64,000 nt of DNA from a candidate division CPR3 bacterium GWF2_35_18 (GCA_001771135.1 MESW01000003.1:8719-72718); one strand, 5' to 3'; positions 26,445-50,912 are shown, counted from the first letter of the stretch. The notes: a model not told the origin generated them from the letters alone. A program made the numbers and translations.

Positions 26445-26446
26445 AG

Positions 26447-26519
26447 TGGCGCTGCGTGGATTTGAACCACGGTTTCAGGATCATGAGTCCTGACGGCGTC
26501 CAGACTGCCTTACAGCGCC
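26447..26519 (-). tRNA. tRNA-Met/Ile2 type (anticodon CAT)
   Basis: Minus strand: acceptor GGCGCTG/CAGCGCC, anticodon arm CAGGA-CTCATGA-TCCTG, T-arm GTGGTTCAAATCCAC; 2 nt from tRNA-Val. Confidence 0.8.
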
Positions 26520-26732
26520 TAATGAAAACGAAAGTCTGTTTAGATACAGTAAAATCATAATTTCCGTCGAAACTTAGATTATGGATTCTCTGTACCTCCA
26601 CGGTTCCATCGAGGTAAGCGCTAATCTTCCCGAGCTAGTAACTTCCAAGAAACGAATTCTTGGGAAACTCGAGACAGAATGCTTAACACCGTTTGGCTCC
26701 AGACTTTCATGATGTGCCTCATCACATCATCT

Positions 26733-26805
26733 GCGCGCCTGCTGCGAATTGAACGCAGTACCTTTTGCTCCGAGAGCGAACGCTCTACCAGATGAGCTAC
26801 AGGCG
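26733..26805 (-). tRNA. tRNA, probably Arg (anticodon TCG); anticodon stem has one C·A mismatch
   Basis: Minus strand: acceptor GCGCCTG/CAGGCGC, D-arm GCTCATCTGGTAGAGC, loop TCTCGGA, T-arm CTGCGTTCAATTCGCAG. Confidence 0.6.
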
Positions 26806-27095
26806 CGATTATAAATCCTTTGGAATCTGAAGTATTAAAAATCAGCAAAGACAAAAGTCTTTGAACCCGACTAAAATTTACTCCATCAGATTCCTTTGGA
26901 TGAGGGTTACCTCTTGCTGTTATCCTCGGGCGGGATATAACTCTATTAATGTAGAGCTTGAAAAAAACAATTCCAGATTCCCTTTTTGTGGGAACCTCCA
27001 GAGAACCTGGAATTGTTTGGTTTGCCGTGGGCGCCTTCAGTTCCCTTACGGCGGGGATGTCAGTTTTCCTTTAGGAGGAGTAAGGAAACACTGTT

Positions 27096-27560
27096 TTATT
27101 CTTCATCATCAATGACGAACGGGTGGCAATTGCCACAACGGTCGCAGAGGTTGGTCTCTGGATTTCTCAACACACGGTGCGGTGACAGAAAGTTCTTACA
27201 ACCATACGTGGTGCAGCGACCCCAACGGCCGGTTTCCATTCGAGCAAAGATGTCCAGAACTCCTTTGACATAGGCTTGATCGTGATCCAGTAGAGCAGCT
27301 TGACGTTGGAACTCAGCAGTAGCGCTTGCCAGATCGAGGTCGTCAGGACAACACTCTACAACCGTGTCAGGGGCTGGTTTTTGCCAGTTTTTGAAGCCGT
27401 TGGCTTTCGTGGTCAGATGCTTCAAAGCATACGGCAATAACACTGGAACCCATTGTTCAGGTTTGAGCTGTTGTAGGATCACATCGGCTCGACTAGGGAC
27501 GCTTTTCGGATCAGCCTTTTCCAGCAAGGCTTCCAATTCGTGAATCAAATCAGTAATCAC
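27096..27560 (-). CDS. Island hypothetical protein with C-terminal Cys-rich (zinc-ribbon-like) tail
   Basis: 154 aa, GC-rich codons; C-terminus CTTYGC…CDRCGNCH. Confidence 0.5.
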   Translation of the reverse strand: MITDLIHELEALLEKADPKSVPSRADVILQQLKPEQWVPVLLPYALKHLTTKANGFKNWQKPAPDTVVECCPDDLDLASATAEFQRQAALLDHDQAYVKGVLDIFARMETGRWGRCTTYGCKNFLSPHRVLRNPETNLCDRCGNCHPFVIDDEE

Positions 27561-27682
27561 AGGTTATACTCCTAAGTTGAATGTTCCCGGGCGTGGCGCC
27601 TCGAGAGGAGGGCCGACACACACCGGGTGGATTGATGGAACAAAATGTTCGGTGTGCAAAACTTTATGTTGTCGGTAACCTC

Positions 27683-28162
27683 CTATTGATCAAAATCGTA
27701 ACCGGGAAATTCGGCGGAGTTCAACACTTTAACCCCATGATACATGCGTCCAAGCTCCATGAAACCGATCTGCAAGGGTTCTAGAGAACCTAATCCAGGT
27801 TTCAGCGCGTACTGCCAATCGCAGACTGAGGGAAAACGTACTGCTCCATGCCACATACATGGACTCCACGCTGAAAGCTGTGGACAAGTGATGTCAGGTT
27901 CGGCTTTTGGGCAGAAAGAGCAACCCAACTGGTGCCAGCGGAGAGCATAAGCCTGGTAGAGGTCTTTGTCAGAGGGGTTGTTCACCCATAACATTACCAT
28001 CGGCCAAGTAATTACGCCGCTGGAAAAGCCAGGGATGGCTTTCACGACTTTGAGCAGTTCTGGGGTTGTAACCTGATCGAACCAACGTGGATCGACAAAT
28101 TGAGCTGCTCGCAGATCAAAGCCCAGAAGCGGTTCATGGTTGATAATAAGGAGTTGACTCAC
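27683..28162 (-). CDS. Island hypothetical Cys/Trp-rich protein
   Basis: 159 aa; GTG start preceded by AGGAGG; multiple Cys (CSFCP, CPQLSAWSPCMWHG, CDW). Confidence 0.5.
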   Translation of the reverse strand: MSQLLIINHEPLLGFDLRAAQFVDPRWFDQVTTPELLKVVKAIPGFSSGVITWPMVMLWVNNPSDKDLYQAYALRWHQLGCSFCPKAEPDITCPQLSAWSPCMWHGAVRFPSVCDWQYALKPGLGSLEPLQIGFMELGRMYHGVKVLNSAEFPGYDFDQ

Positions 28163-28174
28163 GGATACCTCCTA

Positions 28175-28411
28175 TTAATTTACCACGGCAAGAACCGGAA
28201 TGGATTGCTGAAGGGTGATCAAATACTGGCGACCGGTATTGGTAATGCGAACAATACGGTTTTCGTCGATAGTGATATAGCCAGCATTTTTCAGGTAACC
28301 CAGATTCGTGGATTTGTTAATGACACGTTGACGAACCTGAATACCTTCTTCTCCTGCAGTTTGAAGGTTTTCCAGAATCTTGCCAATGGGGGTAGAGCAG
28401 ATAATGTACAT
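28175..28411 (-). CDS. Island small hypothetical protein
   Basis: 78 aa; AAGGAG RBS 6 nt upstream; first gene of a 3-gene minus-strand operon. Confidence 0.45.
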   Translation of the reverse strand: MYIICSTPIGKILENLQTAGEEGIQVRQRVINKSTNLGYLKNAGYITIDENRIVRITNTGRQYLITLQQSIPVLAVVN

Positions 28412-28652
28412 GGTTCTCCTTAGAACGAAAATAAGCTGATTGTTATTGGAGTCTATTACGACTTTTTGAAGGACTTGGAGACGTCAATCGGTTCTCCGAA
28501 TGACGTTATGAAATAGGACAGAAAAGTTCCACGGTCTCCTCCTTTCGAATTGACCCGCGATTGGGGAAAGCGGGTTAAAAATGATCATATCGGCTTTTTA
28601 GCCGGGATGATTACAAGTGATAAATTATGAGGTGCAAAAAATATTAGGTAGT

Positions 28653-28709
28653 TCTTCGACTACGTTCAGAAACTAAATATTTGCTGAGTGCAATCGAAGC
28701 ATTACCTAT
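28653..28709. repeat. 57-bp repeat copy 1 (TCTTCGACTACGTTCA-N14-GCTGAGTGCAATCGAAGCATTACCTAT), 3' of csp-like gene
   Basis: Identical 16-nt and 27-nt blocks shared with 29931-29987; CTTCGA/TCGAAG arms can pair. Confidence 0.8.
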
Positions 28710-28942
28710 AAATCCGCCTTCGGCGAGATTGATAAACTCTAAGTTCATTCTTTACTAAGATTTCATCAAAAGAAAAAGCAGGGCTAGTAATAAGTATGAG
28801 AATTATATATGAAAAATAATAAATTCGCTATTTTTACTAGCCCTTTTTGTCTCTCTCTTTCTCTTTGTGGTAAAAAACCACAGATAATTGCGTGTACGCA
28901 TCAACCTGACGGTCGGTGCGTACGTGGTGGAGACAGATTCCC

Positions 28943-29650
28943 CTAATCCCCCTTTTGATCCTCCTGGAATTGAGCAACAACTTTTGGTTCGAATTCAACG
29001 CCTACGTCCAAGCCGCCAGCATAGTACTTACGGGCGCGTGCCAGATCGCCTTGATTCAAAGCAAGGTTTACAAAGAACGGGATATACAAGCACATGGCTT
29101 GCATGTTCAACTTTTCCCATTCCTCGCCTTTGCCCTTGCGAGCTTTTTTCTTCCGTACATCCTTGAGATTTTCCGCATTTACCTCAGTAGGATTTGCCTC
29201 AAAATCGGCAATAGCTTGACGTAAAACTTCCAAACTATATTCAGGTGATGCTGTCGGGATGGAACTTGATACTTTTGGTGTCAAGGATTGGCGTGGAGCT
29301 GCAGGAGGTTCAACCAAGTGTGAGCGATATGGTTGATCGTAAGATTGAATCGGCGTCCGAGTTGGCGTGCGTACCTGTTGATACTGATCTTGATGATTTG
29401 GTTCAGGATCGAAGCAACGTTGTCCTTTTGGTGGTTGACCAACAAGCGTTGCAGAAACAACCTGTTTTTGACCAAACTTTTTGGGGTTTGGACCAATAGT
29501 AACGTTATCAAGATACAATTCACGCAAGTTAGCTCCATACTCTGGTTGGTTTGTTAACGCAGTTACGTGAAAATACAAGCCATCTTGAAAATCCGGATGT
29601 TCAATAAAACCAAACCCTTTTCCCGGAAAGAAAACATATATCCTATACAT
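28943..29650 (-). CDS. Cold-shock-domain protein with long low-complexity C-terminal extension
   Basis: 235 aa; N-terminal GKGFGFIEHP…GLYFHVTAL CSD/RNP1-like motifs (~70 aa), then Pro/Gln/Lys-rich tail. Confidence 0.75.
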   Translation of the reverse strand: MYRIYVFFPGKGFGFIEHPDFQDGLYFHVTALTNQPEYGANLRELYLDNVTIGPNPKKFGQKQVVSATLVGQPPKGQRCFDPEPNHQDQYQQVRTPTRTPIQSYDQPYRSHLVEPPAAPRQSLTPKVSSSIPTASPEYSLEVLRQAIADFEANPTEVNAENLKDVRKKKARKGKGEEWEKLNMQAMCLYIPFFVNLALNQGDLARARKYYAGGLDVGVEFEPKVVAQFQEDQKGD

Positions 29651-29930
29651 AGTCTGTCTCCAAATGTGTAATGTGTGATATTCATGTGGCTAAATTTTAA
29701 CGATGGGTCATTAAACGACCTGAAAAGATAAGAATTCTAAAGGTTGTTTGAGATAGGAATCCTCCTTGAATTTGAACTTGTTCTCCAGTCAGCTTTTGCC
29801 GAGCGGAGTTTGGTAAAACCTTTTCCACTTTTGTGGTCAAGGGAAGAGAAAACAGGAAAAAAGTTATTAATTCCTATCCTCTATTCCCTTGAACACTAGA
29901 TTTAAGGTGCTAGTTATATATAAAGGTAAA

Positions 29931-29987
29931 TCTTCGACTACGTTCATATGATAATTAATTGCTGAGTGCAATCGAAGCATTACCTAT
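29931..29987. repeat. 57-bp repeat copy 2, 5' of csp-like gene
   Basis: See copy 1; loose similarity extends about 25 bp further upstream (AGGTGC…AGGTA…). Confidence 0.8.
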
Positions 29988-30002
29988 TTTTAAAAAGAGA
30001 CG

Positions 30003-30061
30003 GAGGCAGAAAGCTAAAAACACGATAATAAAAATATTTGTGTTTTGGAAGCTTTCTGCCT
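30003..30061 (-). terminator. Compound long hairpin (13-bp outer stem GAGGCAGAAAGCT/AGCTTTCTGCCTC, inner AAAACAC/GTGTTTT) followed by T-run on minus strand
   Basis: Inverted repeats read directly; T5 follows on minus strand about 85 nt after stop of 30149..30433; T-rich tract also follows on plus strand (bidirectional). Confidence 0.6.
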
Positions 30062-30148
30062 CAGATTGTCTCTCTCTTTTCTTTTTCCAGCATAAGCTGG
30101 AGATGATTGCTTCAGAAGGAGTGCGATGCACCCCTCCTGAAATAGATT

Positions 30149-30433
30149 TTAGTGGAATCTGCATCCATAATCGCCGTTGTGCATTTGACGACGCAGGTTG
30201 ATATGTCCACCTTTTTGGACCAAACCCAGGTATAGGACTGGGATACGAAAATCTCCGTCTGAGGGGATTACTTCTTCGTAATCACGTTTATCCTCTTGGA
30301 GTATTACCGCTCCCTGTAATCCTTTGACCCGGATTCGGTAGAACGTCCACGCTATCCAGTAGAACTCTCGAGTTACCTCGGCGAGCCAGTGGATTTTGTG
30401 AACTAATTCCTCGATACGTGTGGGGTGCATCAT
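30149..30433 (-). CDS. Island hypothetical protein
   Basis: 94 aa; AAAGGAGAAC RBS. Confidence 0.45.
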   Translation of the reverse strand: MMHPTRIEELVHKIHWLAEVTREFYWIAWTFYRIRVKGLQGAVILQEDKRDYEEVIPSDGDFRIPVLYLGLVQKGGHINLRRQMHNGDYGCRFH

Positions 30434-30507
30434 ACCCGTTCTCCTTTCGAAAAGATTTTGTGCTGCAATGTGAGCTCTTTGTTATACGGGTGATGATGTA
30501 GAAGTGA

Positions 30508-30849
30508 TTAACTACAGCGCTGCTCTTTTAAAAGCAGGTAGCGCATGATCGCGCCATGGTAGCAAACAAGAGGGCAGTGTGTGCAGCCGATCTCATCCCA
30601 TGGCCAATTGCCATCGTCCAAATTAATCTGGTAATCAGATATTCCTACGATTTCAACCAAATGGACACCCCAAACATCCAAGAGAACTGCGAAATCAGGA
30701 TGCAGAGATGAACCAAATTGGTTGATGATGTAACTCATGCTGGCTGCGATTTGCATAGGAAGAGCCTCTTTAAACAGTTCCGGGTCCACGAAAAATTGCA
30801 CTCCATTGATGCGGAGCATGACCGTGGGTGGTTGTGGATTTGCGCTCAT
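30508..30849 (-). CDS. Island hypothetical protein (start at MSANPQ, ATGA overlap with upstream gene)
   Basis: ~113 aa; translational coupling overlap with 30846..32105. Confidence 0.45.
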   Translation of the reverse strand: MSANPQPPTVMLRINGVQFFVDPELFKEALPMQIAASMSYIINQFGSSLHPDFAVLLDVWGVHLVEIVGISDYQINLDDGNWPWDEIGCTHCPLVCYHGAIMRYLLLKEQRCS

Positions 30850-32105
30850 GGCTGTACCTGTCTTACTCGAAGACCAGTGTCCCGATCCCACAGATTGGGC
30901 GGATTGTGAACAATCTGCCAGAGATCAACCATATTAGCTCCTGCGAGAACTTGAGCTTTTAGTGCATCTGCTGATATTTTTTCCAGTGAAGCAGCACGAG
31001 CGATGAATTCATCAAACAGGGTGGATACGTCTTCTTCTCTACTTGCTTCAGCACCCCAGCCTTGTTCTTCAGTGATTCGGGTGACATCATAGATGATTCG
31101 GTTAAGTGAATAAGCCATGCCGGCCTTTTCATCTTTGACATCCTGGGTGAGTTTTGCCAGTTGACGAATGATTTGCAGCAGCAAATTAGCCTGGTAGACA
31201 AAGTCCTTTCGGTCAAAACCACCGTATTCCTTGACCGGGAAAAACATCTGCCCAATGCCCAATCCGCTCCAGTTTAGGAGGAACCCATCCCAATACCTTT
31301 CCAATCCTGTACCAGGAGTCTTCCCACCAGGTTCGCCAGGAGATGAAATCTTAGTCTGACCGAAATCAGTCGGGCTAGCGATAGAGATGAACAGCATCCC
31401 TTCGGGCGCGGTGACTTTGACAAAGATGATCTGTTTGCGATACCAGATCATGACGTCATGGGTGCGATTCCACTCGCCGATGAAAAAGGCCTTGACGACC
31501 GGAAATAGGCACCACAACAGTGAGATAGCCATTCCAGCCAGGATACCCAGAAGCAATGGTTGCCAGACGACATTGATGTAACCAGATAGCAACCATTCTG
31601 TTAAGGTTCCATTCATCAGAGCATTGTAGGCAGGGAGCAAGGTTAGTCCCACTGCGACTATTAAGCCTCCGGTGAAGCCCAGAAAAAGAACCCAATACGC
31701 CTGACGGAGACCTTTACCGATGGCTTTGAACATGTCTTCGATGACGATAGTAATGTCTTCGAATATGACGATCTGGCATCTATCATCTTTCTCGAACCAC
31801 CACTGGATAGGGTTTTCGTACATGGTGTCCATCCAGCGGAATACCGGACTGAAGATCGCGACCGTGAAGACATAGAAACGGCGGATGGCCATGAATGATG
31901 TTCGGACGACCTCCTTCAAAAAATTGACCAACCGAGTTGGACCAATGAAGAACAGGATCAACATTGGTGATGAGATGATGAGAAGGGCCAAAAGCCCCCA
32001 TAATAACCAACCTTTGGTTGTAAAAACCAGAAGAGTGGCGCCGGCGAGGAGATAGAGAATCCAGGCGGCTAGGATAGATCGGAAATCAAGTTTGAAAATA
32101 CTCAT
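30846..32105 (-). CDS. Island polytopic membrane protein with cytoplasmic C-terminal domain (start at MSIFKLDF)
   Basis: ~419 aa; GAAAGGAGACCCC RBS before MSIFK; N-terminal half with several TM helices. Confidence 0.55.
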   Translation of the reverse strand: MSIFKLDFRSILAAWILYLLAGATLLVFTTKGWLLWGLLALLIISSPMLILFFIGPTRLVNFLKEVVRTSFMAIRRFYVFTVAIFSPVFRWMDTMYENPIQWWFEKDDRCQIVIFEDITIVIEDMFKAIGKGLRQAYWVLFLGFTGGLIVAVGLTLLPAYNALMNGTLTEWLLSGYINVVWQPLLLGILAGMAISLLWCLFPVVKAFFIGEWNRTHDVMIWYRKQIIFVKVTAPEGMLFISIASPTDFGQTKISSPGEPGGKTPGTGLERYWDGFLLNWSGLGIGQMFFPVKEYGGFDRKDFVYQANLLLQIIRQLAKLTQDVKDEKAGMAYSLNRIIYDVTRITEEQGWGAEASREEDVSTLFDEFIARAASLEKISADALKAQVLAGANMVDLWQIVHNPPNLWDRDTGLRVRQVQP

Positions 32106-32418
32106 GGGGTCTCCTTTCAACAAGATACTCCTTTCGAAATTGGTGGAGAGGGCCATTTGGCGCACTCCATGGAAAAACAACCCGCATTTTACGGGGACCA
32201 AACAGAATTAAGCTGCACATCGTGCAGGTTAAAAAAGAAATATTTAGTTTTAATGTACTTATAATTTTCTCTTCTAATTTCTAGAATTAAAGATTATTAA
32301 TCCCAGGAATCAGAAGAGAGGGTGGGTGACGATACAGTAATGTATGTCATGAAGGCAGCCACCCTCGTCTCTCTCCTGATGTTTGTATCACCGCGCGTAA
32401 GCAGGGTGAAGATTGATG

Positions 32419-32787
32419 TTACTTGATTTCTTGGACTTCGGCTTCCACGACTTCTTCTTCATAGCCAAGAGGCTCAGAATCAGATTGTTGGACACCGATG
32501 TCGGCGCGAGCTAAATCCAGAAACCATTGGGATCCAAAATACAAGACGATCACGTCGTCAAAGGGTCCAAAGAAGATATCCACTGGTACGATCACGTAAA
32601 GAATCGTGCCTATGAAGATCAGTTTGTGCCGAAAGAGCACCTTGGGGTGACGAAAGAGCATCCAGACCTCTTTCGCATTGGCGACAATGTCGGCAATAAG
32701 ATCCTTACGATTCTGTTCAGGCAGGCGACGGAGTCGCGCTCGTCCGGACGGAGAAGGTTGTGGATTTGCAGGAGGTGTTTTCTTCAT
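32419..32787 (-). CDS. DUF1232 (YkvA-like) small membrane protein
   Basis: 122 aa; YVIVPVDIFFGPFDDVIVL resembles DUF1232 signature (…SPIDLIPDFIP..G.LDD…). Confidence 0.5.
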   Translation of the reverse strand: MKKTPPANPQPSPSGRARLRRLPEQNRKDLIADIVANAKEVWMLFRHPKVLFRHKLIFIGTILYVIVPVDIFFGPFDDVIVLYFGSQWFLDLARADIGVQQSDSEPLGYEEEVVEAEVQEIK

Positions 32788-33545
32788 GGTTGTACCGTGA
32801 CCAATTCCGTGCGGATGTAGCAGGTCTGCCCTTCGGCGGTCGTAATCTGGTAAAGAGCATTGGAGCCATTCCAGGAGACCGGGGCGGTTGCTTCTCCGAT
32901 TATGATGATCACATCGCCAGTTGAAAGCTTGATGATCGAGGTCTGCCAGGTGCTTTCGTTCAAATCAGTATGGCAGTTGACGCCGTCATCATCCTGGAAG
33001 GTCACAGTGCCTTGGCGGTTCGCCGGAGTTGCAGTTGGAGCAGGTGTTGGAGTGTTTTGCGGAACTGCAGTTGCCTGGTTCATCACAACCTGGGTCGGAT
33101 TGGCAGTTGGTATAGTCGGACGGTCAATGCTCAGAATCAGTTCAATCCGGATGTAGCAGATTTGGCCGGTTTGATTAACCTTGACCCTGTACAGGTTGTT
33201 GGAGCTATTCTGCCAGGAAACAGGGGCTGTTCCGAATCCAATTACTTCGAGTTCTGTCCCATTTGGCAGAGAGATGATCTGGCTGGGTGTTGACCAAGTT
33301 GCTTCATCAGTGTTCAAATGGCATTGAACAGATCCAGAGCCATCGGTGGCGGCGACTTTTAGCCATTTCGCGGTGTTCCAGGGAGTAACCGTAGCCGCAA
33401 CGCGAACCGGGTCGATACTTCCGCCTAAAGTAATGGTCCTGCATAAACCGCAAAAACAAGCAACACAGATTATGGGAATGAGCAGGATCCAAAGCCAGGG
33501 GCGGCGTTTGCGATTTTGAGCGATTGAGGAAGTTGAAGTTGTCAT
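32784..33545 (-). CDS. Membrane-anchored protein with two tandem ~65-aa Cys-containing beta-rich repeats (SH3b-like?)
   Basis: 253 aa; N-terminal TM; repeats GSVQCHLN…APVSWQNS…CYIRIEL and GVNCHTDL…APVSWNGS…CYIRTEL separated by Pro/Thr linker. Confidence 0.55.
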   Translation of the reverse strand: MTTSTSSIAQNRKRRPWLWILLIPIICVACFCGLCRTITLGGSIDPVRVAATVTPWNTAKWLKVAATDGSGSVQCHLNTDEATWSTPSQIISLPNGTELEVIGFGTAPVSWQNSSNNLYRVKVNQTGQICYIRIELILSIDRPTIPTANPTQVVMNQATAVPQNTPTPAPTATPANRQGTVTFQDDDGVNCHTDLNESTWQTSIIKLSTGDVIIIIGEATAPVSWNGSNALYQITTAEGQTCYIRTELVTVQP

Positions 33546-33554
33546 AGCAATCTC

Positions 33555-34052
33555 CTATTGCTGAATATTTTGCACTTGCACAAGCTCCTGCCGGAGGTAG
33601 CAAGTTTGATTTTGGCCATCAAGTCTGACGAGGTATACATCTTTTGATCCATTCCAGATAGTGGGTGCAATATCTTCACCCAAAATCGTTACCGTCGTTC
33701 CAACATTCAACCTGACGATTGTGTTCGGATCAGTCCAGGTTTCATATGCCAGAGTGAGGTGGCATTGTACCGATCCGGAAGGATCATTGTAGGTGATGGT
33801 TCCCACAGTAATTACTACTGGGGTTGTGGTATCAGGAATAGCTGGAGTGACATTTTCTCCTTTTGATACCATTGGTAGAAAAACATAATTATAGTTGCCC
33901 AGACGCGCCGGGATAAAATCACCGTAGTACTCCGAGGTATCTGGGTTTACGTTTTGAGGTGTCGAAGACAGCGCCTGTAAACCAATCCAGGCAACGAACA
34001 CCAACAAAATGCCGATGATAAGATGCGGAATTCCAATTCTTGAAATCTTCAT
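33555..34052 (-). CDS. Membrane-anchored protein with one copy of the same SH3b-like repeat (paralogue of 32784..33545)
   Basis: 165 aa; N-terminal TM; SVQCHLTL…APTIWNGS…CYLRQEL. Confidence 0.55.
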   Translation of the reverse strand: MKISRIGIPHLIIGILLVFVAWIGLQALSSTPQNVNPDTSEYYGDFIPARLGNYNYVFLPMVSKGENVTPAIPDTTTPVVITVGTITYNDPSGSVQCHLTLAYETWTDPNTIVRLNVGTTVTILGEDIAPTIWNGSKDVYLVRLDGQNQTCYLRQELVQVQNIQQ

Positions 34053-34212
34053 GCCTTTAACCTCCGATAGAGCCTCCTGATTGGATGATGCTGGGGGGAA
34101 TTTTTCCGCCCAGTTTGATTTAAAGACCGATTTTGGTCTTTAACGATAACAAGAATAAAAAAAGGGATAATAGCAAATCCGTCAGCATAAGCTGGCGGAT
34201 TAATAGGTTGGA

Positions 34213-36204: not shown

Positions 36205-36535
36205 CTTTCCTTTCTTGAAAAAATCCGCAACCGCTTCGGAGTAAAGGGATTGCTTCTGAAATACAAATTAACCCGATTAACCGGGATAATTAACAAAGTA
36301 TTGTTCTTTCAAATTTAAATTTGAAAAGAAGATTTTCTAAGCAATAACTTAGAAAGATTCATTTTTTAGGTGCAAAAGAGTTTTTTAAAAGTATTTTTTA
36401 GATAACTCTTTGTTTACGCTCAGAGATTGAAGCTGAAAGCAAACAAAGTATTATCTAAGTTATAAAGTGAGAGAGGATAGTCCTAAATGAGAGGTTTCAA
36501 GGCGGATGCCAAGAAAAATTCATAAAGGACTATCC

Positions 36536-37969: not shown

Positions 37970-37983
37970 GTAGGCCTCCCTTG

Positions 37984-40329
37984 TTAGTTTGGCACACCGA
38001 GCAAGTCCAACAGACTGCGTTCGAGATGAGGATTGAACCAACCGCGCCATCCTGGAGGTGGACCCATTCTTTTCTTTGCTTCTTCAGGACCTTCTACCCC
38101 ATCCAACTGTTGTTCCATTGATTCATAACCAGAAGGGGGTTTTACTTCCCAAAGATTTGAGAGGGTTACATTTGGAGGGTAAAACACTTCGGCCAGCCGG
38201 TGCTTGCGATTCGGTTCATTACTGAAGACTAAGGCAACAGGGAAATCGTTTAAGATTGCCTGACCAAAGTTCTCCACGATGCTGGCGAAGCTGTGGAATA
38301 TACCGAAGAAACCGGTATTGTACTTCCGACAGGTGTTCATCACGATACTGAAGGATCGGCGAAAGTTTTTTGTTACCACTGGAGCTTGATCTCCAATGAC
38401 GGAATCTCGCTCAGCTTCTGACGCCGCAACCATATCGTCCACGATGACAACCATCTCTTCACCTAAATCGCAGGCCAGCTTTCCGACTGCTGGAATCGTG
38501 ATTTCCTGAATTAGTCTCAGGTATTCCAGATAGACAAACTGATTTCCCGATTCTCTGCGAATCACCCAAGGAAAGCCTAAAATCCGACCATTCTTTTTGA
38601 TTTGCTGCACCAATATTTCGGTGCTGGCCATAACTTCTTTCCGAAGCTGAACTGCCATTTGATTGAACTGCTCAGGGCTTTCGGGATTACCGAAGGTGTA
38701 GATCGGTGCTTGGCCTCCAAGCTTAATCGCCAACTCGCTGGTCCACGGTTCTTGGGTATCTGAAACATGCAGAACGATAACGTTCCTCGTTCGCATGTAG
38801 GCTGATATGACTGCCATTACCGTTTTCCCCGAACCTGATGGGCCTAAGAATAACGCCGATGGGGTTTTGTCCCATGAGACGAGACGATGAGTTACCGGAT
38901 GACGACCGAGTGGCCAGGCTCCGCCAGAAACGCCCACAGCTTCGGTGCTGTCCGCAACGACCTTGAGCATTTCACTCCACTTCCGGACGGCGAAGCGTTT
39001 TGCTTGATAAGCAGTTACAGGAGTCGCCATTAGATTGAGGAACCAATCCCAGACCTTTCCCGTCATTCGGAAGAACCGATTGTTTGAGTATTGACGTTGA
39101 ATAGGAGTGGTTCCAATCTTCCAAGGCGATCCAGGAATCATACTATACAGTGTTCTGCGAAGATAATCCGGATCTTGGTTTTCGACACCCATCACGCGTT
39201 CGTGGCGAGAAGGCAGACTATTTTCTGTCTGAGTTAGATCTATTTCCGTACCTGCCGCCATGACCAAAACCGATGTCCAGATTTCCGGACTAGAGAGGTT
39301 CTCTTGCTCGATACAAACATGAACATCGAGAGAGAAAAGCACCTCCCATTCCTCTTTTGTCGCCGGATACACTCGCCAAAGGGCAACGTGTTTGTCGCCA
39401 TGAGTATAATCGGCTTCATGAAAACGAAGATCTGGCAAAGCTCCGAGAATTGGCTTTGGCATGGGATTGTCACCATGGGTTGTTGACCCTGAAGTGAGGA
39501 ATGCATATGCCAGATTTGCCCATTGTGATGGGTTTAAAGGTGTAGCTCCCGCTAATGCGGTAGTCGCCATTTTGGGATTGAAACAGTGATTAGCCAGTCC
39601 GGTCATGACAAGCATTCGTCCACGATCATTTGCACCAGCCGCATAATACCGTTCTAGCTCCTGGTGAAGATTTACCCAGAGAGCATTTCCTGGCATCTGC
39701 CGTGTGGCGGTTGTGATTAACTGATGAAACGCTCTATTGTCGTGTGGAACACTCATTGAAATCATTTTCCACCACATTGGATTGACTCCGCGACCAGATG
39801 GATCGAGTAAATGGTCAGCAAGCATCGGTGGCGTTTGATGAACACCAACGACCATTGATCGACCATCATTTACCGAATTTGAATCAATCGGTATCAGAAT
39901 GGCAACAGGACCATTAACACCTACCGGAGTATAAGACTGCACTTTAAAGCCATAAAGCGCTTCCGCTTCAGCCACAAGATCTTCAATGGGCATTGGCGCG
40001 AACGGCATGCTAGCGTGTAGAATTTGGGTCAAAGCCGGGTGGCCGCGACCTTTGATCGTTATTGTGGCTGGAACTGGTCCTTGCGCAGTAACGTGGCGTT
40101 TTCCTTCTCGACCTGGAATTTGAGATTTACCGATGGTTTGGCCAATCACAACAGTTTCCAGACCTAAACGTAGAGAAGCTTTGAAGAAAGGAGTGTCGCT
40201 TTTGATAGTAAGCAATCCAGCTTGACGAAGTTCAAAATGATTATATCCGTTCGGACTCATTACCCGAACATCTGCCAACACCGATGGTGGTGGCAATTGA
40301 AAGAGGGAGGGTAAGTTTGTATTTTTCAT
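37984..40329 (-). CDS. VirB4/TraC/TrbE-family conjugation/secretion ATPase-like protein
   Basis: 781 aa; Walker A LFLGPSGSGKT in C-terminal half; Walker B MVVIVDDMVAASEAE; RKYNTGFFGIFHS resembles VirB4 motif (…RKfN…ATQS); size as VirB4. Confidence 0.65.
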   Translation of the reverse strand: MKNTNLPSLFQLPPPSVLADVRVMSPNGYNHFELRQAGLLTIKSDTPFFKASLRLGLETVVIGQTIGKSQIPGREGKRHVTAQGPVPATITIKGRGHPALTQILHASMPFAPMPIEDLVAEAEALYGFKVQSYTPVGVNGPVAILIPIDSNSVNDGRSMVVGVHQTPPMLADHLLDPSGRGVNPMWWKMISMSVPHDNRAFHQLITTATRQMPGNALWVNLHQELERYYAAGANDRGRMLVMTGLANHCFNPKMATTALAGATPLNPSQWANLAYAFLTSGSTTHGDNPMPKPILGALPDLRFHEADYTHGDKHVALWRVYPATKEEWEVLFSLDVHVCIEQENLSSPEIWTSVLVMAAGTEIDLTQTENSLPSRHERVMGVENQDPDYLRRTLYSMIPGSPWKIGTTPIQRQYSNNRFFRMTGKVWDWFLNLMATPVTAYQAKRFAVRKWSEMLKVVADSTEAVGVSGGAWPLGRHPVTHRLVSWDKTPSALFLGPSGSGKTVMAVISAYMRTRNVIVLHVSDTQEPWTSELAIKLGGQAPIYTFGNPESPEQFNQMAVQLRKEVMASTEILVQQIKKNGRILGFPWVIRRESGNQFVYLEYLRLIQEITIPAVGKLACDLGEEMVVIVDDMVAASEAERDSVIGDQAPVVTKNFRRSFSIVMNTCRKYNTGFFGIFHSFASIVENFGQAILNDFPVALVFSNEPNRKHRLAEVFYPPNVTLSNLWEVKPPSGYESMEQQLDGVEGPEEAKKRMGPPPGWRGWFNPHLERSLLDLLGVPN

Positions 40330-40520
40330 GCCTTTCTCCTTGCGGAATGGGACCGGGGGCGGAACAGCGCCCGGCTATTACAAAACTCGCTTTTGTAAGC
40401 GAGATAACCAACATATTTATTTTTATTTGCTTTTTTAAATGTGCCTGTCTCTTCCTCCTTTTAGACTCTTTGATTAATAAGAATTATTTCCAGAATACAA
40501 AGAATCAAAAGGAGAGAGAG

Positions 40521-40567
40521 GAATGATCCGTACAACGAGTGTTGTGCGTCCGTTATACGGATCATTC
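40521..40567. repeat. 12-bp-arm perfect palindrome GAATGATCCGTA-N23-TACGGATCATTC
   Basis: Inverted repeat read directly; lies between VirB3-like and VirB4-like genes; loop carries smaller hairpins. Confidence 0.8.
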
Positions 40568-40596
40568 TTTATTGTAGTCTCGTTGTTCCTCTCTTT

Positions 40597-40857
40597 CTAC
40601 TGAGGTTTAGGGTTTTCGAGTTTGTGCTTCACGGAGAAGCGAATAAAGGCGATCAGTCGCCAGCATCCAACTCCGATCAGATACAAGCCGAAGATACCCA
40701 TTTCGATGAGAATCAACTGAATCAAGCCGATCCGGAAGATCATGGGTCCAATGATCCAGCTGAAAACGATAACAAAAGCCAGGGTGATGATGACCAGGAT
40801 GGTCAACACCGTGGGCTTCTCACCTTGATTTGTAAGGAGATACATCAGTTTTTTCAT
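40597..40857 (-). CDS. VirB3-like small 2-TM membrane protein
   Basis: 86 aa, two hydrophobic helices; directly upstream of VirB4-like gene; ATGA overlap with the VirB6-like upstream gene. Confidence 0.5.
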   Translation of the reverse strand: MKKLMYLLTNQGEKPTVLTILVIITLAFVIVFSWIIGPMIFRIGLIQLILIEMGIFGLYLIGVGCWRLIAFIRFSVKHKLENPKPQ

Positions 40858-42344
40858 GATTCTTCTCCTGAAGTGTGTGTCTCTACATAATGAACAACAG
40901 CTTCTTCGGCAATAGAACCAGCAATCGGAGCAGCTTCTGGTGCACCCAAAGCAGTTGCGGCGGTAGCTCCAGCTATATATCCGATTTCTCCAAGGAGTTC
41001 TCCATTTACGTTTCGTTGCTCGACTTTCGTAGGAACGCCGTTGACCGATACATCGTCACCAGAAATTTCCGGATAAACCTGGCTTCCAGCTCGCGCATAA
41101 ACAGTGCCATCAGGACCAACAATATCCTCTGAAGCAAAGTAACGCTCTTCAGGTGCTGGAGTATTTTCCGGTAGGACGTTTGGATCAGCGTTAGGAAGAG
41201 TTTCTTTTCCAGTTTGAGAGTCATCACCGTCTGTAGGAATTCCAGTCGTTGGAGCAGGAGTGATGATGGGTTTACCATCGCTACCGTCGTTTACCGGTCG
41301 GAATTCTCCTTCGACGATCTCTGACTCAGAGGTGCTTGGAGATGGAGTCTTTCCATTACCGCCATGACCACCATTACCACCGCCATTGGTTTGACCAGTT
41401 GGAAGCTGACGCTGACCTGGCTTAGGCGCTGGGGCGTTGGGATTACTGACTTTGATATCAGGATCTTTATCCTTATGACGGGATAAAATCCATGTCTGGA
41501 AACCTTCCCAAAGCGTTTCCGCTTTGTCGTCCCACCAGCTATGGTCATGTCCATCTTCATCTTCGGGCAGCATGGATTTGATGACCGTGAGTCCGGCGAT
41601 GATCGGGAAGATCAGTAAAGCTCCCATAAGGAAGGCATAAGTGGAACCTGGCTGGTTCATGTTTGCAGCAAGCAACTGCATCATGAGACCCCAACTCAAG
41701 TCCATAAGAAGAAAGAGACCAAAGGCAGTAAACCAAGCCATGATTGGTTTCAGGCTTTTACGGAAAATCGCCATTGGGATGAGGATAATCGGCGCAATTG
41801 CGAGGAGGATCTCGTACGCCAGATGGCCTGCGAGATAGCCGTACGTTAGTGGAATGCCCACGAACGACATGAAGTCGACGCTCGTGTTGAGGCTGAGCCA
41901 GTCAACCGTGAATCCCATTGCCCTCCGGGCAAGATCAGGGCCGATGCCGAATACTTGCCATAGCAATTTGCCGATTTCATCCGCCATGGTATAGGTGACA
42001 AATGGTGCCGGTAGGACAAACATCATCTCTAGCCAAAACCAGTGCCGTTTAGCAATCGCTTCGGGAACATTTTCCCTTTTTACCGCCGACACAATTACAT
42101 TCAGGCAGAAAATCAGGAATAGTCCTAGACCAATTGCAAGCATTCCCCATACCAAGACAGGATTGGAGTCAAAGATTTGCTGGATACTACTGACATTGAT
42201 CCAAGCTTTGTTCTCAAAATCAATGACTCCATTGACGAATGTTTCGACTTGATCAATTAATTCGCCGGCAGCGCTGCACCCGGTCAACAGAGTTGACAGG
42301 AGCACGACGCCGGACAGGCGCAGCACGAGTTTAGTTTTTTTCAT
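40854..42344 (-). CDS. VirB6/TrbL-like polytopic membrane lipoprotein with long disordered Pro/Gly/Asp-rich C-terminal tail
   Basis: 496 aa; lipobox LLTGCS; >=5 TM helices; C-terminal ~200 aa low complexity. Confidence 0.5.
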   Translation of the reverse strand: MKKTKLVLRLSGVVLLSTLLTGCSAAGELIDQVETFVNGVIDFENKAWINVSSIQQIFDSNPVLVWGMLAIGLGLFLIFCLNVIVSAVKRENVPEAIAKRHWFWLEMMFVLPAPFVTYTMADEIGKLLWQVFGIGPDLARRAMGFTVDWLSLNTSVDFMSFVGIPLTYGYLAGHLAYEILLAIAPIILIPMAIFRKSLKPIMAWFTAFGLFLLMDLSWGLMMQLLAANMNQPGSTYAFLMGALLIFPIIAGLTVIKSMLPEDEDGHDHSWWDDKAETLWEGFQTWILSRHKDKDPDIKVSNPNAPAPKPGQRQLPTGQTNGGGNGGHGGNGKTPSPSTSESEIVEGEFRPVNDGSDGKPIITPAPTTGIPTDGDDSQTGKETLPNADPNVLPENTPAPEERYFASEDIVGPDGTVYARAGSQVYPEISGDDVSVNGVPTKVEQRNVNGELLGEIGYIAGATAATALGAPEAAPIAGSIAEEAVVHYVETHTSGEES

Positions 42345-42361
42345 AGTCGTGCTCCTTAGCG

Positions 42362-42700
42362 TTACTGGTTGAGGTTGATGCCGTTGCTGGCGAGACTGAT
42401 CAACCAGTTAATCAAGGCGATAGCTGCGTTGATAATCGTCATGATGAGGCCGGCTCCGTTGACCGCCAGATTGATGAGGTCGGTGAGCATGAAGATGCCG
42501 AAACCGATCCAGCCAATAGTTACAGCCACGTTTTTGAGGTGGCTATTGGCTCCGGACTTGATTTTGTCATCTGACGACATCTTGGCCTGGATGGTGTACC
42601 AGAGGGCTGCAACTAAGCAGATAAGTGCCGTAAGAACGCCCAAGATGGCACCACCATAGAGCATTGCCTGAAATGCAGCAGGTGCTGTATTGATAGTCAT
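42362..42700 (-). CDS. VirB2/TrbC pilin-like small 2-TM protein
   Basis: 112 aa; hydrophobic-hydrophilic-hydrophobic layout typical of T4SS pilin-like subunits; first gene of module. Confidence 0.45.
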   Translation of the reverse strand: MTINTAPAAFQAMLYGGAILGVLTALICLVAALWYTIQAKMSSDDKIKSGANSHLKNVAVTIGWIGFGIFMLTDLINLAVNGAGLIMTIINAAIALINWLISLASNGINLNQ

Positions 42701-43211
42701 AGCGGAATTCTCCTTTCGAGATAGTCTTGAACATAGTTTTTAGTTGATCTTACTTGATATCAGGACAAACTTAATCTTAGATTTGGTTCGGATGCCTCCT
42801 TAATCTGAATAGGCGGAGGGGCTTTTTGGCGCCTCCATAGTTTTATCGGCCTATGGCCGGATTGAACGAGTTAGGTTTGAAATGTGCTATTTAATTTATT
42901 AATTCCCCTAAATCTAATTTTTTAAAAATGATAAAAAATTAATTTCAGATAATTAATTACGCGAAAAAACGGCACTTTAGGTGTCGTTTCTCTCGATTAA
43001 TATTAAATTTTATCTCTCTCAAAAAGGGGTAAATAATAGTAAAGTTGTTGGGGATTAACGTTTACTATTAAAATTTTCTATTACTTTCTGCTTTAAGCAA
43101 ACAAATGACTTTGTTTTCTTAAGGTAAAAAGAGTGTCTTGGGTGGTAAAAAAGATATAGATGAAGCGAATAATTGCTAGATGTATATGTTTTTTCAAGAC
43201 ACTTCCTGAAA

Positions 43212-43257
43212 GGGAGTCGCCTGACGGCGGACTTCAAGCCAAGCGGCTCCCTTTTTT
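43212..43257 (+). terminator. Orphan plus-strand intrinsic terminator (GC-rich hairpin + T6) in island intergenic region
   Basis: AGGGAGTCGCC…GGCGGA…GCGGCTCCC hairpin followed by TTTTTT; no plus-strand CDS upstream. Confidence 0.45.
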
Positions 43258-43389
43258 GGAATTGTGTGGAGCGCGCAGGCGGATGGCAGTTAGCCTATGA
43301 AATTTGGATCAAGGGTACGAATACCCAAGACCTCAGGTATGTTTGTTAAACATGTGGTTGAAGGTTTTTCTCCTTGAACGAAAAGTGAA

Positions 43390-44142
43390 TCAGACGGCGA
43401 CAGGGGTCGGCGCAGGGAAGATCTGCCGGAAATCGGCAATCATTTCGGCCGTCATGTTGATGCCAGCGAGATGTTCATCGGTCATCGTGATGATCTCTTC
43501 CAGCGTGCGGCCGGTTGCGTCCAGGTGGACACCGGTGCCATTGCTGAAGAACAGGCTGGGCTTCAGGTCGGTCATCGCGTAAAAGTTCTCGCTGAGCTTG
43601 ATCAGATCAGCCTTAGCATCTTTGGCCATCTGGGCGACAGCTTTCGGACTGTAGAATCCCCGCTCGGGATTCTCCTGATTCCGATATTGCGCACGGTGGG
43701 CCTTGAGGACCCGACCGAAGGTGGCTGACAGACTCATGGAGCGATCGCGGAAATCTGGGTCAACGAACCGAACCAGTGCCTTGAAGATGGGATTCGCCAT
43801 CAGGACGCCCAGTTCCTTCTGGCCGGCTTCCGCCTGATCGAGAGCCCAATTCCACTGACAATCGCTGAACATGTTCCAGAGACGTTGGACATTGTTGCAG
43901 AAGATGCGGACTTCATCGGCGACCACGTCTAGGAATGCTTCATCGGCGAATTTCAAAACGTCCTGGAGGCGGCGTTGCTCGCCATTGGCTTCGCCAAACT
44001 GTTCTTCGAAATCGGCGCTGAACAGGCCTGTCTGGTTTGGATCGGTAACGATGGCGCGGTGAATGCCGAACAAAGTGCGCATTTTGCCGGCGGCATTTTC
44101 AAAGTCTGAACGAACGGTCTTGAGGGTCAAATTTACAGACAT
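43390..44142 (-). CDS. Island hypothetical cytoplasmic protein
   Basis: 250 aa; AGGAG RBS; GC-rich codons; no recognised motif. Confidence 0.5.
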   Translation of the reverse strand: MSVNLTLKTVRSDFENAAGKMRTLFGIHRAIVTDPNQTGLFSADFEEQFGEANGEQRRLQDVLKFADEAFLDVVADEVRIFCNNVQRLWNMFSDCQWNWALDQAEAGQKELGVLMANPIFKALVRFVDPDFRDRSMSLSATFGRVLKAHRAQYRNQENPERGFYSPKAVAQMAKDAKADLIKLSENFYAMTDLKPSLFFSNGTGVHLDATGRTLEEIITMTDEHLAGINMTAEMIADFRQIFPAPTPVAV

Positions 44143-44895
44143 GAGTTTTTCTCCTAGAGGAAAATGAACGTGAATGGGTGAAATTTTGGAAGGTTAAACT
44201 GACAATTTTGATGCTCTACTAAACTGAAAGTGATTTTTCGATACAGCCTCCTTTGCTAATCGAAACGATTGTGATTTTCCACGTGCTTACGCAGGTGGAT
44301 TTAATAAAATTTCCTTTACCCTTTTGGGCTTGGGAGGGAAAAATACAAATTATTAGGTACTTCTCTATCGGTTAAAACCTCATCGAAGTATAATAACATT
44401 ATGTTCTTCGCTCCCATGCCCAAGGAATTATTTTCCCTGGAGGTCCTTATTACAAAGGGTTTATCTGCATGTCTATTGCTATTAATTTTTAAGTGCGATG
44501 TATTATAGATGTATACTTCAAAAAATAACTAAAAATTGCCCCACGGTTGACGTAGCTGCAAACATGAAATATACAATTTTGCTCTCTCCAACAAGGGCAA
44601 ATGGCAGTCTAAAATTTAAAAAAAGAAACCGCAAAAGAGTAAAATTAAGCGAAAAAAATATGGATTTATTGTCCATATTTTTTAATCTTTCCCAAATTAT
44701 TCTCTTTTAAGATTTCTTCAGCAAGTTTAAAAAGAGGTAAAAGGTTATAATTCTTATTTCTTCAGTCTTAATTGTAATTAACATTGACCTCTTCTTGGTA
44801 TAAGTTATTCTGCGATACTCTAACATACTACAGGTTATTTTGTCAAGAGAAAAAACAAGAAAAAGAGAATAAGCAAAAAAAGATATTTACATAAA

Positions 44896-49755: not shown

Positions 49756-49757
49756 TA

Positions 49758-50882: not shown

Positions 50883-50912
50883 ATAACGTATAATTTTGAA
50901 AAAATATAAAAC

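What the first reader, a model, noticed from the sequence alone, without database searches (positions are those of the whole stretch)
26806..44500. 17.6-kb compositionally foreign, integrase-less island between uvrA/tRNA cluster and uvrB
GC and codon usage change abruptly from the AT-rich backbone to a much GC-richer block. All 17 island genes are co-directional on the minus strand with strong AGGAGG-type RBSs, which the backbone mostly lacks. The block begins right after a Val-Met-Arg tRNA cluster and ends in an AT-rich gap before uvrB. No integrase, transposase, relaxase or flanking direct repeat of the tRNA 3' end was found. It carries housekeeping-type genes (rho, csp) alongside secretion-type genes. 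Two explanations seem possible: a real horizontally acquired island from a higher-GC lineage, or a chimeric assembly joining two genomes at tRNA genes. If real, it is a non-canonical accessory region with a coherent functional theme (envelope/secretion plus RNA handling).
Basis: partly seen in the sequence, partly recalled or inferred. Interest (0 to 1): 0.85.

Follow-up and report, generated by a model that had tools for sequence, protein, structure and literature searches.

The report
Foreign island encoding hidden VirB4 secretion machine
A real, horizontally acquired 19-kb insertion splits the uvrB-uvrA gene pair of a groundwater CPR3 bacterium; it carries its own tRNAs and a very divergent type-IV-secretion-like machine always paired with a Rho-like ATPase, a combination not described in the T4SS literature I could search.

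Summary
The interval is GC 0.47 against 0.33 in the backbone and GC3 0.51 against 0.26, with no overlap. SD motifs precede 13/17 island genes against 8/38 backbone genes (p=2e-4).

A chimeric assembly is rejected. Both junctions recur at ~100% identity in independent assemblies from different samples and assemblers, and one 171-kb contig spans everything.

In the nearest relatives available, the order is uvrB-uvrA-transglutaminase-uvrC with no tRNAs between uvrB and uvrA. The whole 19.2-kb interval (25693-44895) is therefore the insertion, including the Val/Met/Arg tRNAs and a 67-aa ORF.

Related contigs keep the order: polytopic protein, small TM protein, VirB4-like, wall enzyme (VanW or M23), Rho-clade ATPase, anchored beta-domain proteins, DUF1232/CSD. 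One complete relative sits in a different host and site. It is also GC-richer than its flanks, SD-led, tRNA-bearing and integrase-less.

No integrase, relaxase, coupling protein, att repeat or phage gene was found. Best reading: an acquired, undescribed T4SS-like variant. Its substrate and mobility mechanism are inferred only.

The parts
25693..44895 (.). Whole inserted interval between the uvrA start and the uvrB stop (19.2 kb)
   Evidence: In L020 and L025 uvrB is followed directly by uvrA-TGase-uvrC with no tRNAs.
25858..25912 (-). Terminator-like hairpin (11-bp stem plus U-rich tail) closing the island next to the uvrA promoter
   Evidence: Fold gives -17.4 kcal/mol, z=-2.8. The uvrA promoter-like TTGACA-18-TACAAT lies at 25787-25758.
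25929..26132 (-). 67-aa two-TM ORF with a GAGGAG SD, GC3 0.44
26373..26445 (-). tRNA-Val(CAC), directly abutting tRNA-Met, no encoded CCA
26446..26519 (-). tRNA-Met(CAT)
26733..26806 (-). tRNA-Arg(TCG)
27096..27560 (-). 154-aa soluble protein with a C-terminal Cys-rich zinc-finger-like motif (R-x4-P-x4-C-x2-C resembles the DksA/TraR pattern; read by eye, no HMM hit)
   Evidence: Sequence. No Pfam hit.
27683..28162 (-). 159-aa ORFan
28175..28411 (-). 78-aa protein, weak winged-helix (Mrr_N/HTH_34) similarity; possible regulator
   Evidence: 18.6 bits, below cut-off.
28646..28709 (-). Copy 1 of a 64-nt repeat that forms a long hairpin, followed by a U-run
28943..29650 (-). 235-aa protein with an N-terminal cold-shock-domain motif (GKGFGFI...YFHV)
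   Evidence: PF00313, E 0.002, below cut-off. A CSD fused to DUF1232 occurs in the related loci L101/L103.
29924..29987 (-). Copy 2 of the 64-nt hairpin repeat (88% identical)
30149..30433 (-). 94-aa ORFan
30508..30891 (-). 127-aa ORFan (called as 113 aa in other records)
30846..32201 (-). 451-aa four-TM membrane protein with a conserved C-terminal domain (called 436/419 aa elsewhere)
   Evidence: Homologues in L101 and L106 at E 6e-21 and 5e-20. TM prediction.
32419..32787 (-). 122-aa DUF1232-like membrane protein
   Evidence: Matches the DUF1232 part of the L101 193-aa protein and the L106 100-aa protein (PF06803).
32784..33545 (-). 253-aa N-terminally anchored protein with two copies of a ~78-aa Cys-His-Trp beta domain
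33555..34052 (-). 165-aa N-terminally anchored protein with one copy of the same domain
34213..36204 (-). 663-aa Rho-clade hexameric-type ATPase paralogue: Walker A GPSKSGKTW, GER, Walker B DVFYFLDS, TGTR, plus a ~200-aa helical C-terminal extension
   Evidence: family profile against Rho structures, E 6e-23.
36536..38050 (-). 504-aa (477 aa from the ATG used by other callers) membrane-anchored wall-enzyme protein with a VanW-like C-terminal domain
   Evidence: weak hit. The L101 homologue has PF04294 on record. An M23 domain replaces it in L108.
37984..40329 (-). 781-aa VirB4-like ATPase (Walker A GPSGSGKT 496-503, Walker B VVIVDD 627-632, invariant R668)
40597..40857 (-). 86-aa small TM protein immediately upstream of VirB4 (VirB3-like position)
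   Evidence: No HMM support.
40854..42344 (-). 496-aa lipoprotein-signal polytopic membrane protein with a Pro/Gly-rich exterior tail (VirB6-like position)
   Evidence: weak homology to the L108 and L102 counterparts. No HMM support.
42362..42700 (-). 112-aa three-TM pilin-like protein
   Evidence: NF045849 Mbov_0395 pilin-like conjugal transfer protein, E 1.5e-4, 21 bits against a cut-off of 40.
43390..44142 (-). 250-aa soluble ORFan with the highest GC3 (0.68); not conserved in the related elements
22693..25692 (-). uvrA (backbone flank)
44896..46992 (-). uvrB (backbone flank)

Best explanation
The interval 25.7-44.9 kb is a genuine horizontally acquired insertion that split the ancestral uvrB-uvrA pair of a candidate division CPR3 (Patescibacteria) genome. 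It brought 18 co-directional, SD-led, GC-richer genes and three tRNA genes. Its core is a very divergent member of the VirB4-based (type IV secretion/conjugation-like) machines of single-membrane bacteria. The proposed parts are: a pilin-like small TM protein; a VirB6-position polytopic lipoprotein; a VirB3-position small TM protein; a VirB4 ATPase; a membrane-anchored wall-remodelling enzyme (VanW-like here, M23 peptidase in a relative); anchored extracytoplasmic beta-domain proteins; and further membrane proteins. A Rho-clade ring ATPase is always present in place of a VirD4/TcpA coupling ATPase, and a cold-shock (single-strand nucleic-acid binding) module is associated with a DUF1232 membrane protein. 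Shown here: foreignness, insertion, the VirB4 fold, Rho-clade homology, conserved synteny, and recurrence of the same signature in another host. Inferred: that these proteins form one envelope-spanning translocon; that the Rho-like ATPase and CSD act on the substrate, possibly a single-stranded nucleic acid, at the membrane; and that the tRNAs help to decode the island's GC-richer codons. How the island was inserted is unknown, since no integrase, relaxase or att site was found.
Against: Only VirB4 is identified with confidence. The VirB2/3/6-like roles rest on size, topology and gene order, without consistent HMM support. Walker B is hhhhDD rather than the usual DE. No coupling protein, relaxase or VirB8-like protein was detected. 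The Rho-like model was too poor to use (pLDDT 49). The CSD hit in the window protein is below threshold, and no CSD was seen in L106. The relatives used for the empty-site argument are distant (uvrA 56-61% identical), so the tRNAs could in principle have arrived separately. I could not check whether the three tRNAs are the genome's only copies. No expression or protein data exist.
Confidence: 0.75

Rival explanations
1. Chimeric assembly: two genomes were joined at the tRNA genes, so the island belongs to another organism.
For: The composition switches abruptly next to tRNA genes. Several short contigs in other samples end in the tRNA region or inside the 250-aa gene.
Against: Each junction is crossed at 99.8-100% identity by several independent assemblies made with different assemblers and samples: LBQB01000001.1 (313 kb), a JGI contig (274 kb), a megahit contig (171 kb) spanning both junctions, and Logan contigs. 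No alternative junction was found. The same island signature occurs in a second host.
Confidence: 0.02
2. A still-active integrative conjugative or plasmid-like element. Its integrase, relaxase and origin of transfer are among the ORFans (the 250, 159, 154, 127 and 94-aa proteins) or are supplied in trans, and it transfers itself as DNA through the VirB4 machine.
For: There is a VirB4 core. Foreign composition is retained in two different hosts and sites. It carries tRNAs. An 80%-identical variant exists in another sample. The final gene has a TraR/DksA-like zinc-finger pattern (read by eye).
Against: No integrase, relaxase, coupling protein or replication protein is detectable. No att-like repeats exceed chance in the window or in L106. 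No relatives occur among 72,556 plasmids. All Rifle assemblies show the island fixed at one site.
Confidence: 0.2
3. The Rho-like ATPase, the CSD protein, the tRNAs and the strong SD sites form an expression toolkit. They would provide termination/antitermination and decoding, letting foreign GC-richer genes be expressed in a host that hardly uses SD. On this view they are not parts of the transport mechanism.
For: Rho and cold-shock proteins are classical termination and antitermination factors (established knowledge). Island tRNAs read codons enriched in the island. Hairpin repeats flank the CSD gene. 30 of 38 backbone genes lack an SD motif.
Against: The Rho-like gene keeps a fixed position between the wall enzyme and the anchored membrane proteins in all loci long enough to show it. 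It has a conserved extra C-terminal domain. In L101/L103 the CSD is fused to a DUF1232 membrane module, which places it at the membrane.
Confidence: 0.25
4. An integrated virus or virus-like element, such as a membrane-containing virus that uses an FtsK/HerA-type packaging ATPase.
Against: There are no PHROG hits for ten proteins. No relatives occur in INPHARED phages or in IMG/VR. No capsid, portal or terminase was found. The ATPase aligns over its full length, N-terminal domain included, to VirB4, which is well above the viral ATPases.
Confidence: 0.06
5. Native, vertically inherited genes whose unusual composition reflects selection, for example for high expression.
For: In AT-rich genomes, highly expressed genes can be somewhat GC3-richer (general knowledge).
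Against: GC1, GC2 and amino-acid usage shift as well. The block interrupts a conserved uvrBA pair. The family is extremely rare and patchy, with 21 representatives among 1.84 billion proteins.
Confidence: 0.02

Closest known systems
Monoderm (MPF-FATA-type) type IV secretion systems, including the chromosomal T4SS of Patescibacteria (PMC12102498; PMC12857230)
   Same: VirB4-fold ATPase with N- and C-terminal domains. A small TM protein lies just upstream, a polytopic membrane protein further upstream, and a peptidoglycan-acting enzyme directly downstream. There is a pilin-like small protein. The locus is chromosomal and lacks a relaxase, as in most Patescibacteria T4SS loci.
   Different: VirB4 is not recognisable by Pfam or NCBIfam models. 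Walker B is DD. No VirD4/TcpA, TrsD, PrgI/PrgH or VirB8 signal was found. A Rho-clade ATPase and CSD/DUF1232 modules are conserved parts. The wall enzyme is VanW-like or M23 on a family-specific N-terminal domain. The block is compositionally foreign and carries tRNAs.
Minimal ICEs of Mycoplasma/Mollicutes (Mbov_0395 pilin-like protein family NF045849)
   Same: A compact T4SS-like module in a wall-reduced or small-genome bacterium. The only family hit of the 112-aa protein is to their pilin-like conjugal transfer protein.
   Different: That hit is below the cut-off (21 bits against 40). Mycoplasma ICEs have a DDE transposase, TraG/VirD4 and inverted repeats, and none of these is present here.
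Transcription termination factor Rho
   Same: Clear homology across the OB-like region and the RecA-type ATPase core. The Walker A, catalytic GER, Walker B and TGTR arginine motifs are conserved.
   Different: Scores are about 10-fold below the equivalog cut-offs. The position that holds K/R in the Rho SG[KR]xLSGG loop is not conserved (my reading of the alignments). There is an extra ~200-aa helical C-terminal domain. It is encoded inside a secretion-like operon rather than as a housekeeping gene.
tRNA-carrying phages and genomic islands
   Same: A foreign block with its own tRNA genes and its own codon usage.
   Different: The tRNAs lie inside the element rather than serving as the integration target. 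There is no partial tRNA repeat, no integrase and no virion genes.

Membership tests
VirB4-based type IV secretion / conjugation machinery | VirB4 ATPase: two-domain protein (N-terminal domain plus RecA-like C-terminal domain of the FtsK/HerA/VirB4 clade) | tested here: met
VirB4-based type IV secretion / conjugation machinery | Recognition by VirB4 sequence profiles | tested here: not met
   No Pfam, NCBIfam or PHROG family at E<=0.01 apart from T4SS-DNA_transf at 16.9 bits, below its cut-off. CONJscan profiles were not available.
VirB4-based type IV secretion / conjugation machinery | Intact nucleotide-binding motifs | tested here: met
   Walker A G496-x4-GKT503 and R668 are invariant, and D631-D632 nearly invariant, across 21 family members. 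Walker B is hhhhDD rather than DE.
VirB4-based type IV secretion / conjugation machinery | VirB3-like, VirB6-like and pilin-like membrane partners next to virB4 | tested here: inconclusive
   Size, TM topology and order fit, and they are conserved in L102, L106, L108 and L109. No consistent HMM hit was found. The only hint is NF045849 at 21 bits.
VirB4-based type IV secretion / conjugation machinery | Cell-wall enzyme (VirB1/PrgK analogue) in the locus | tested here: met
   The gene directly downstream of VirB4 has a VanW domain (on record for L101/L103; weak in the window) or Peptidase_M23 (L108) on a shared N-terminal region.
VirB4-based type IV secretion / conjugation machinery | Type IV coupling protein (VirD4 or TcpA) | tested here: not met
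   The island has no second FtsK-like ATPase. Its only other ATPase is Rho-clade.
Integrative conjugative element | Integrase or other recombinase, and flanking att repeats | tested here: not met
   No recombinase family hit. The best bracketing repeat is a 12-mer within the shuffled range, and L106 has none.
Integrative conjugative element | Relaxase and origin of transfer | tested here: not met
   No relaxase family hit. An oriT cannot be recognised without a relaxase family.
Prophage | Virion and packaging genes (capsid, portal, terminase) | tested here: not met
   No PHROG hit for ten proteins. No match in phage genomes or in IMG/VR.
Transcription termination factor Rho (housekeeping) | Score above the equivalog cut-off of Rho models; canonical length and domain set | tested here: not met
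   35-42 bits against cut-offs of 315-628. The protein is 663 aa with an extra C-terminal region.
Rho clade of RecA-type ring ATPases (homology only) | Specific similarity to Rho rather than to F1, FliI or V-type ATPases | tested here: met
   A family profile built without true Rho hits Rho structures at 6e-23, and the next-best group at 1e-6.
tRNA-targeted genomic island | Insertion at the 3' end of a tRNA gene, with a partial tRNA copy at the far end | tested here: not met
   The tRNA 3' ends point away from the gene block. There is no tRNA-derived repeat at 44.1-44.9 kb. Relatives have no tRNA at this site.
Anti-phage defence island | Match to known defence-system proteins | tested here: not met
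   PADLOC gives only a 13.6-bit P-loop match.

The most novel reading that the evidence does not exclude
This is a previously unrecognised class of VirB4-driven envelope machine. In it, a Rho-type ring translocase and a membrane-tethered cold-shock domain replace the relaxase and coupling-protein module, so the machine would move single-stranded RNA or DNA rather than a relaxase-piloted strand. It rides on integrase-less, tRNA-bearing islands that keep their own GC content and SD-dependent translation signals across different hosts that make little use of SD.
Probability: 0.18. Interest if true: 0.85.

Novelty: new variant of a known kind. Interest (0 to 1): 0.62.

Why it matters
T4SSs have recently been shown to be essential for the epibiotic life of Patescibacteria. 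Surveys find them with VirB4 sequence profiles. This island shows that a whole lineage of VirB4 machines escapes the general-purpose sequence profiles tested here (Pfam, NCBIfam, PHROGs), although the CONJscan profiles those surveys use could not be run. The lineage has only about 21 representatives in 1.84 billion proteins, all about 22-35% identical to one another. It comes with a fixed Rho-like ATPase partner instead of a coupling protein. If the Rho-like and CSD parts act on the cargo, that would point to a different way of feeding a T4SS-type channel. The case is also a clean example of an island that carries its own translation signals and tRNAs into a host with different initiation habits. 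Finally, it settles a practical question: a sharp composition break next to tRNAs in a MAG is not necessarily a misassembly.

Tried and rejected
1. The word-index homology searches with the 781-aa protein and with the family alignment returned only the query itself. Only the exhaustive HMMER search found relatives.

2. The genome-collection scan with uvrB found no close CPR3 relative; the best match was 59% identical. A true sister-genome empty site was therefore not available. The same loci did give the uvrB-uvrA synteny argument.

3. Metagenome pattern scans failed. The VirB4 alignments were too divergent, and the Rho-like alignment gave one short contig.

4. The AF2 model of the Rho-like protein was too poor to use (pLDDT 49). 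The afdb50 library was unavailable.

5. att-site searches gave only a chance-level 12-mer (AAGAGGTAAAAG at 25796 and 44732) and nothing in L106.

6. The encoded-CCA test for foreign tRNAs was not significant: 0/3 against 6/10, p=0.19.

7. The guess that the 165/253-aa repeat is SH3-like was not supported.

8. The Zn-finger proteins at the ends of the window element and of L106 are not detectably homologous.

9. Rfam found only the tRNAs. PADLOC, PHROGs, plasmid and phage searches were all negative.

10. The taxonomy of the hosts of the related elements could not be established. Cluster names give only 'MAG... [bacterium]'.

Full report
**Observation.** The compositional break is real. One-kb windows give GC 0.27-0.39 outside and 0.40-0.50 inside roughly 26.4-44.2 kb. 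For 38 backbone genes, mean GC is 0.332 and GC3 is 0.262 (maximum 0.351). For the 17 island genes, GC is 0.482 and GC3 is 0.507 (minimum 0.364). GC1, GC2 and amino-acid usage shift as well, for example Lys 4.2% against 9.1%. All 17 ORFs lie on the minus strand. SD-like motifs precede 13/17 island genes but only 8/38 backbone genes (p=1.8e-4). For strong motifs the counts are 11/17 against 3/38 (p=2.5e-5). Backbone genes hit ordinary Pfam families strongly. No island protein reaches a curated cut-off in Pfam, NCBIfam, PHROGs or PADLOC.

**Not a chimera.** Exact-protein look-ups show the host is 'candidate division CPR3 bacterium GWF2_35_18' from groundwater metagenomes. The uvrB-island junction is present in six displayed places. 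The island-uvrA junction is present in several others. Both include contigs from different samples and assemblers. One 171-kb megahit contig spans the whole region (L001 plus L012). All these contigs are collinear with the window at 99.8-100% identity, and none shows an alternative junction. Contigs that stop near the tRNAs or inside the 250-aa gene simply end there.

**It is an insertion, and the tRNAs belong to it.** No close CPR3 sister genome was found; the best uvrB match is 59% identical. In the nearest genomes retrieved, Daviesbacteria (L025) and Blackburnbacteria (L020), the order is uvrB-uvrA-transglutaminase-like-uvrC. That is exactly the window's backbone order. The uvrB-uvrA gap is 178 nt in L020 and 1.27 kb in L025, and there are no tRNAs between the two genes. 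uvrB-uvrA adjacency also holds in about 50 of the 80 loci. The full 25693-44895 interval is therefore inserted DNA. It includes tRNA-Val(CAC), Met(CAT) and Arg(TCG), and an SD-led 67-aa two-TM ORF (25929-26132). That ORF is followed by a terminator-like hairpin, just before the uvrA promoter-like site at 25787-25758. Independent support comes from a complete related element (L106), which carries an internal, co-directional tRNA cluster (Val, Trp, Glu) near its distal end. Codons read by two of the island tRNAs, GTG and CGG, are 2-3x more frequent in island genes than in backbone genes. This fits a decoding role but does not prove it.

**The Rho-like protein.** The 663-aa protein is a Rho-clade ATPase. 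Its E-value against M. tuberculosis Rho is 5e-10, covering the OB-like region and the ATPase core. A profile built only from its syntenic relatives hits Rho structures at 6e-23, against >=1e-6 for F1 and FliI-type ATPases. It scores far below the Rho equivalog cut-offs and has a conserved extra C-terminal region. It is a paralogue belonging to the system, not the housekeeping terminator.

**Conserved system.** Contigs carrying family members keep the same gene order. Where they are long enough, the order is: pilin-like small TM protein; ~500-560-aa polytopic protein; 65-86-aa TM protein; VirB4-like; ~470-500-aa anchored wall enzyme; Rho-like; anchored beta-domain protein(s); DUF1232 protein; 4-TM protein. 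The wall enzyme shares an N-terminal region of about 320 aa in all loci. It ends in a VanW domain in most and in Peptidase_M23 in L108. VanW has been reported as a peptidoglycan transpeptidase family (PMC10980060). In L101/L103 a cold-shock domain is fused to the DUF1232 membrane module. In the window they are separate genes, of 235 aa and 122 aa. The VirB2/3/6-like labels rest on size, topology and position only. HMM scans gave nothing consistent, apart from a sub-threshold hit of the 112-aa protein to a Mycoplasma ICE pilin-like family.

**Same signature in another host.** The 26-kb contig behind L105/L106 shows a complete relative lying between chromosomal genes: Trp-repressor-like and PGA_cap on one side, a GDE_C-like gene on the other. 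None of these has a homologue in the window. There too the element is GC-richer (0.52-0.59 against 0.44-0.48; GC3 0.51-0.69 against 0.43-0.53). Every element gene has an AGGAG(G)-type SD, and the flanking genes have none. It also lacks any integrase or relaxase and has no bracketing repeat above chance. An 80%-identical variant of the Rho-like gene (74% at the DNA level) exists in yet another sample.

**How it probably works.** Shown: acquisition by insertion; a VirB4 ATPase with intact motifs; a Rho-clade ATPase; a wall enzyme; and many membrane or anchored proteins in a conserved operon-like order. Inferred, by analogy with monoderm T4SSs: VirB4 docks on the small TM and polytopic proteins to form a membrane translocon, the wall enzyme opens or remodels peptidoglycan locally, and the anchored Cys-containing beta-domain proteins reach into the wall. 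That analogy includes the chromosomal, mostly relaxase-less T4SS of Patescibacteria (PMC12102498; PMC12857230). The Rho-like ring ATPase occupies the place where a coupling ATPase would be expected. Together with a membrane-linked cold-shock domain, this suggests handling of a single-stranded nucleic acid at the membrane. That step is speculative, at about one chance in three. The main alternative is that Rho-like, CSD, tRNAs and SD sites serve the island's own expression in a host with few SD sites. The insertion mechanism is unknown.

**Comparison and novelty.** Genomic islands are common in Patescibacteria (PMC12455944), and T4SSs are widespread there (PMC12102498). The island as such is therefore not surprising. 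What is new is the kind of T4SS-like module. Its VirB4 is cryptic to the profiles tested. It has a Rho-clade partner and CSD/DUF1232 modules, and a recent comprehensive T4SS review does not mention these together with T4SSs. It has no coupling protein, carries tRNAs, and keeps a foreign GC and SD signature in two hosts. I rate it a new variant of a known kind.

**Limits.** The relatives used for the synteny argument are distant. The hosts of the related elements are unidentified. Only one protein has a confident structural assignment. No read-level, expression or biochemical data were available.

Noticed in passing
window 28646-28709 and 29924-29987: A 64-nt direct repeat (88% identical) sits in the two AT-rich spacers flanking the CSD gene. 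On the transcribed strand each copy folds into a long hairpin (z=-4.8 and -3.3), and the first is followed by a U-run. It may be a terminator, attenuator or RNA-processing element.
   Followed up: partly
window 26445/26446: tRNA-Met(CAT) and tRNA-Val(CAC) abut with no spacer, and a 213-nt unassigned stretch (26520-26732, GC ~0.45) separates them from tRNA-Arg. None of the three tRNAs encodes CCA, whereas 6 of 10 backbone tRNAs do (not significant).
   Followed up: partly
window 49000-52000: A very AT-rich stretch of the backbone (GC 0.245-0.27) covers genes for glycosyltransferase-type proteins (MGDG_synth, Glyco_transf families in the records). It may be a second, oppositely skewed variable region for surface glycosylation.
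   Followed up: no
window backbone genes (whole window outside 25.7-44.9 kb): 30 of 38 backbone genes have no SD-like motif upstream, so the host seems to rely little on SD-led initiation. The flanking genes of the related element in L106 show the same.
   Followed up: partly
window 43640-43810: Several independent assemblies break inside the 250-aa gene, the GC-richest part of the island (0.56-0.58), rather than at the compositional junction. This may reflect coverage bias or strain variation.
   Followed up: no
L106 18165-19000: An 835-nt GC-rich non-coding stretch with many short inverted repeats lies inside the related element, between a response-regulator gene and the last element gene. 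It could be a structured RNA or a DNA site.
   Followed up: no
L025 11969-13242: In the Daviesbacteria relative the uvrB-uvrA spacer holds two small unannotated ORFs (152 and 199 aa) with slightly raised GC (0.42 against ~0.37). The same intergenic site may be a recurrent landing place for foreign DNA.
   Followed up: no
window 25796-25807 and 44732-44743: An exact 12-mer, AAGAGGTAAAAG, occurs in direct orientation just inside both ends of the inserted interval. Its score lies within the range of shuffled controls, so it is only a candidate target duplication.
   Followed up: yes
L015 1-277 (corresponds to window ~31.36 kb, inside the 451-aa gene): One contig from another sample diverges from the window over its first 277 nt, and gene callers give 419, 436 or 451 aa for this gene in different records. 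This suggests strain-level variation at the 5' part of the membrane-protein gene.
   Followed up: no
window 18844-19245 and 54702-55322: A Phage_holin_4_2-family small protein lies next to uvrC, and a LexA-like repressor lies downstream of uvrB. Both are ordinary backbone genes, noted only for context on the DNA-repair neighbourhood.
   Followed up: no
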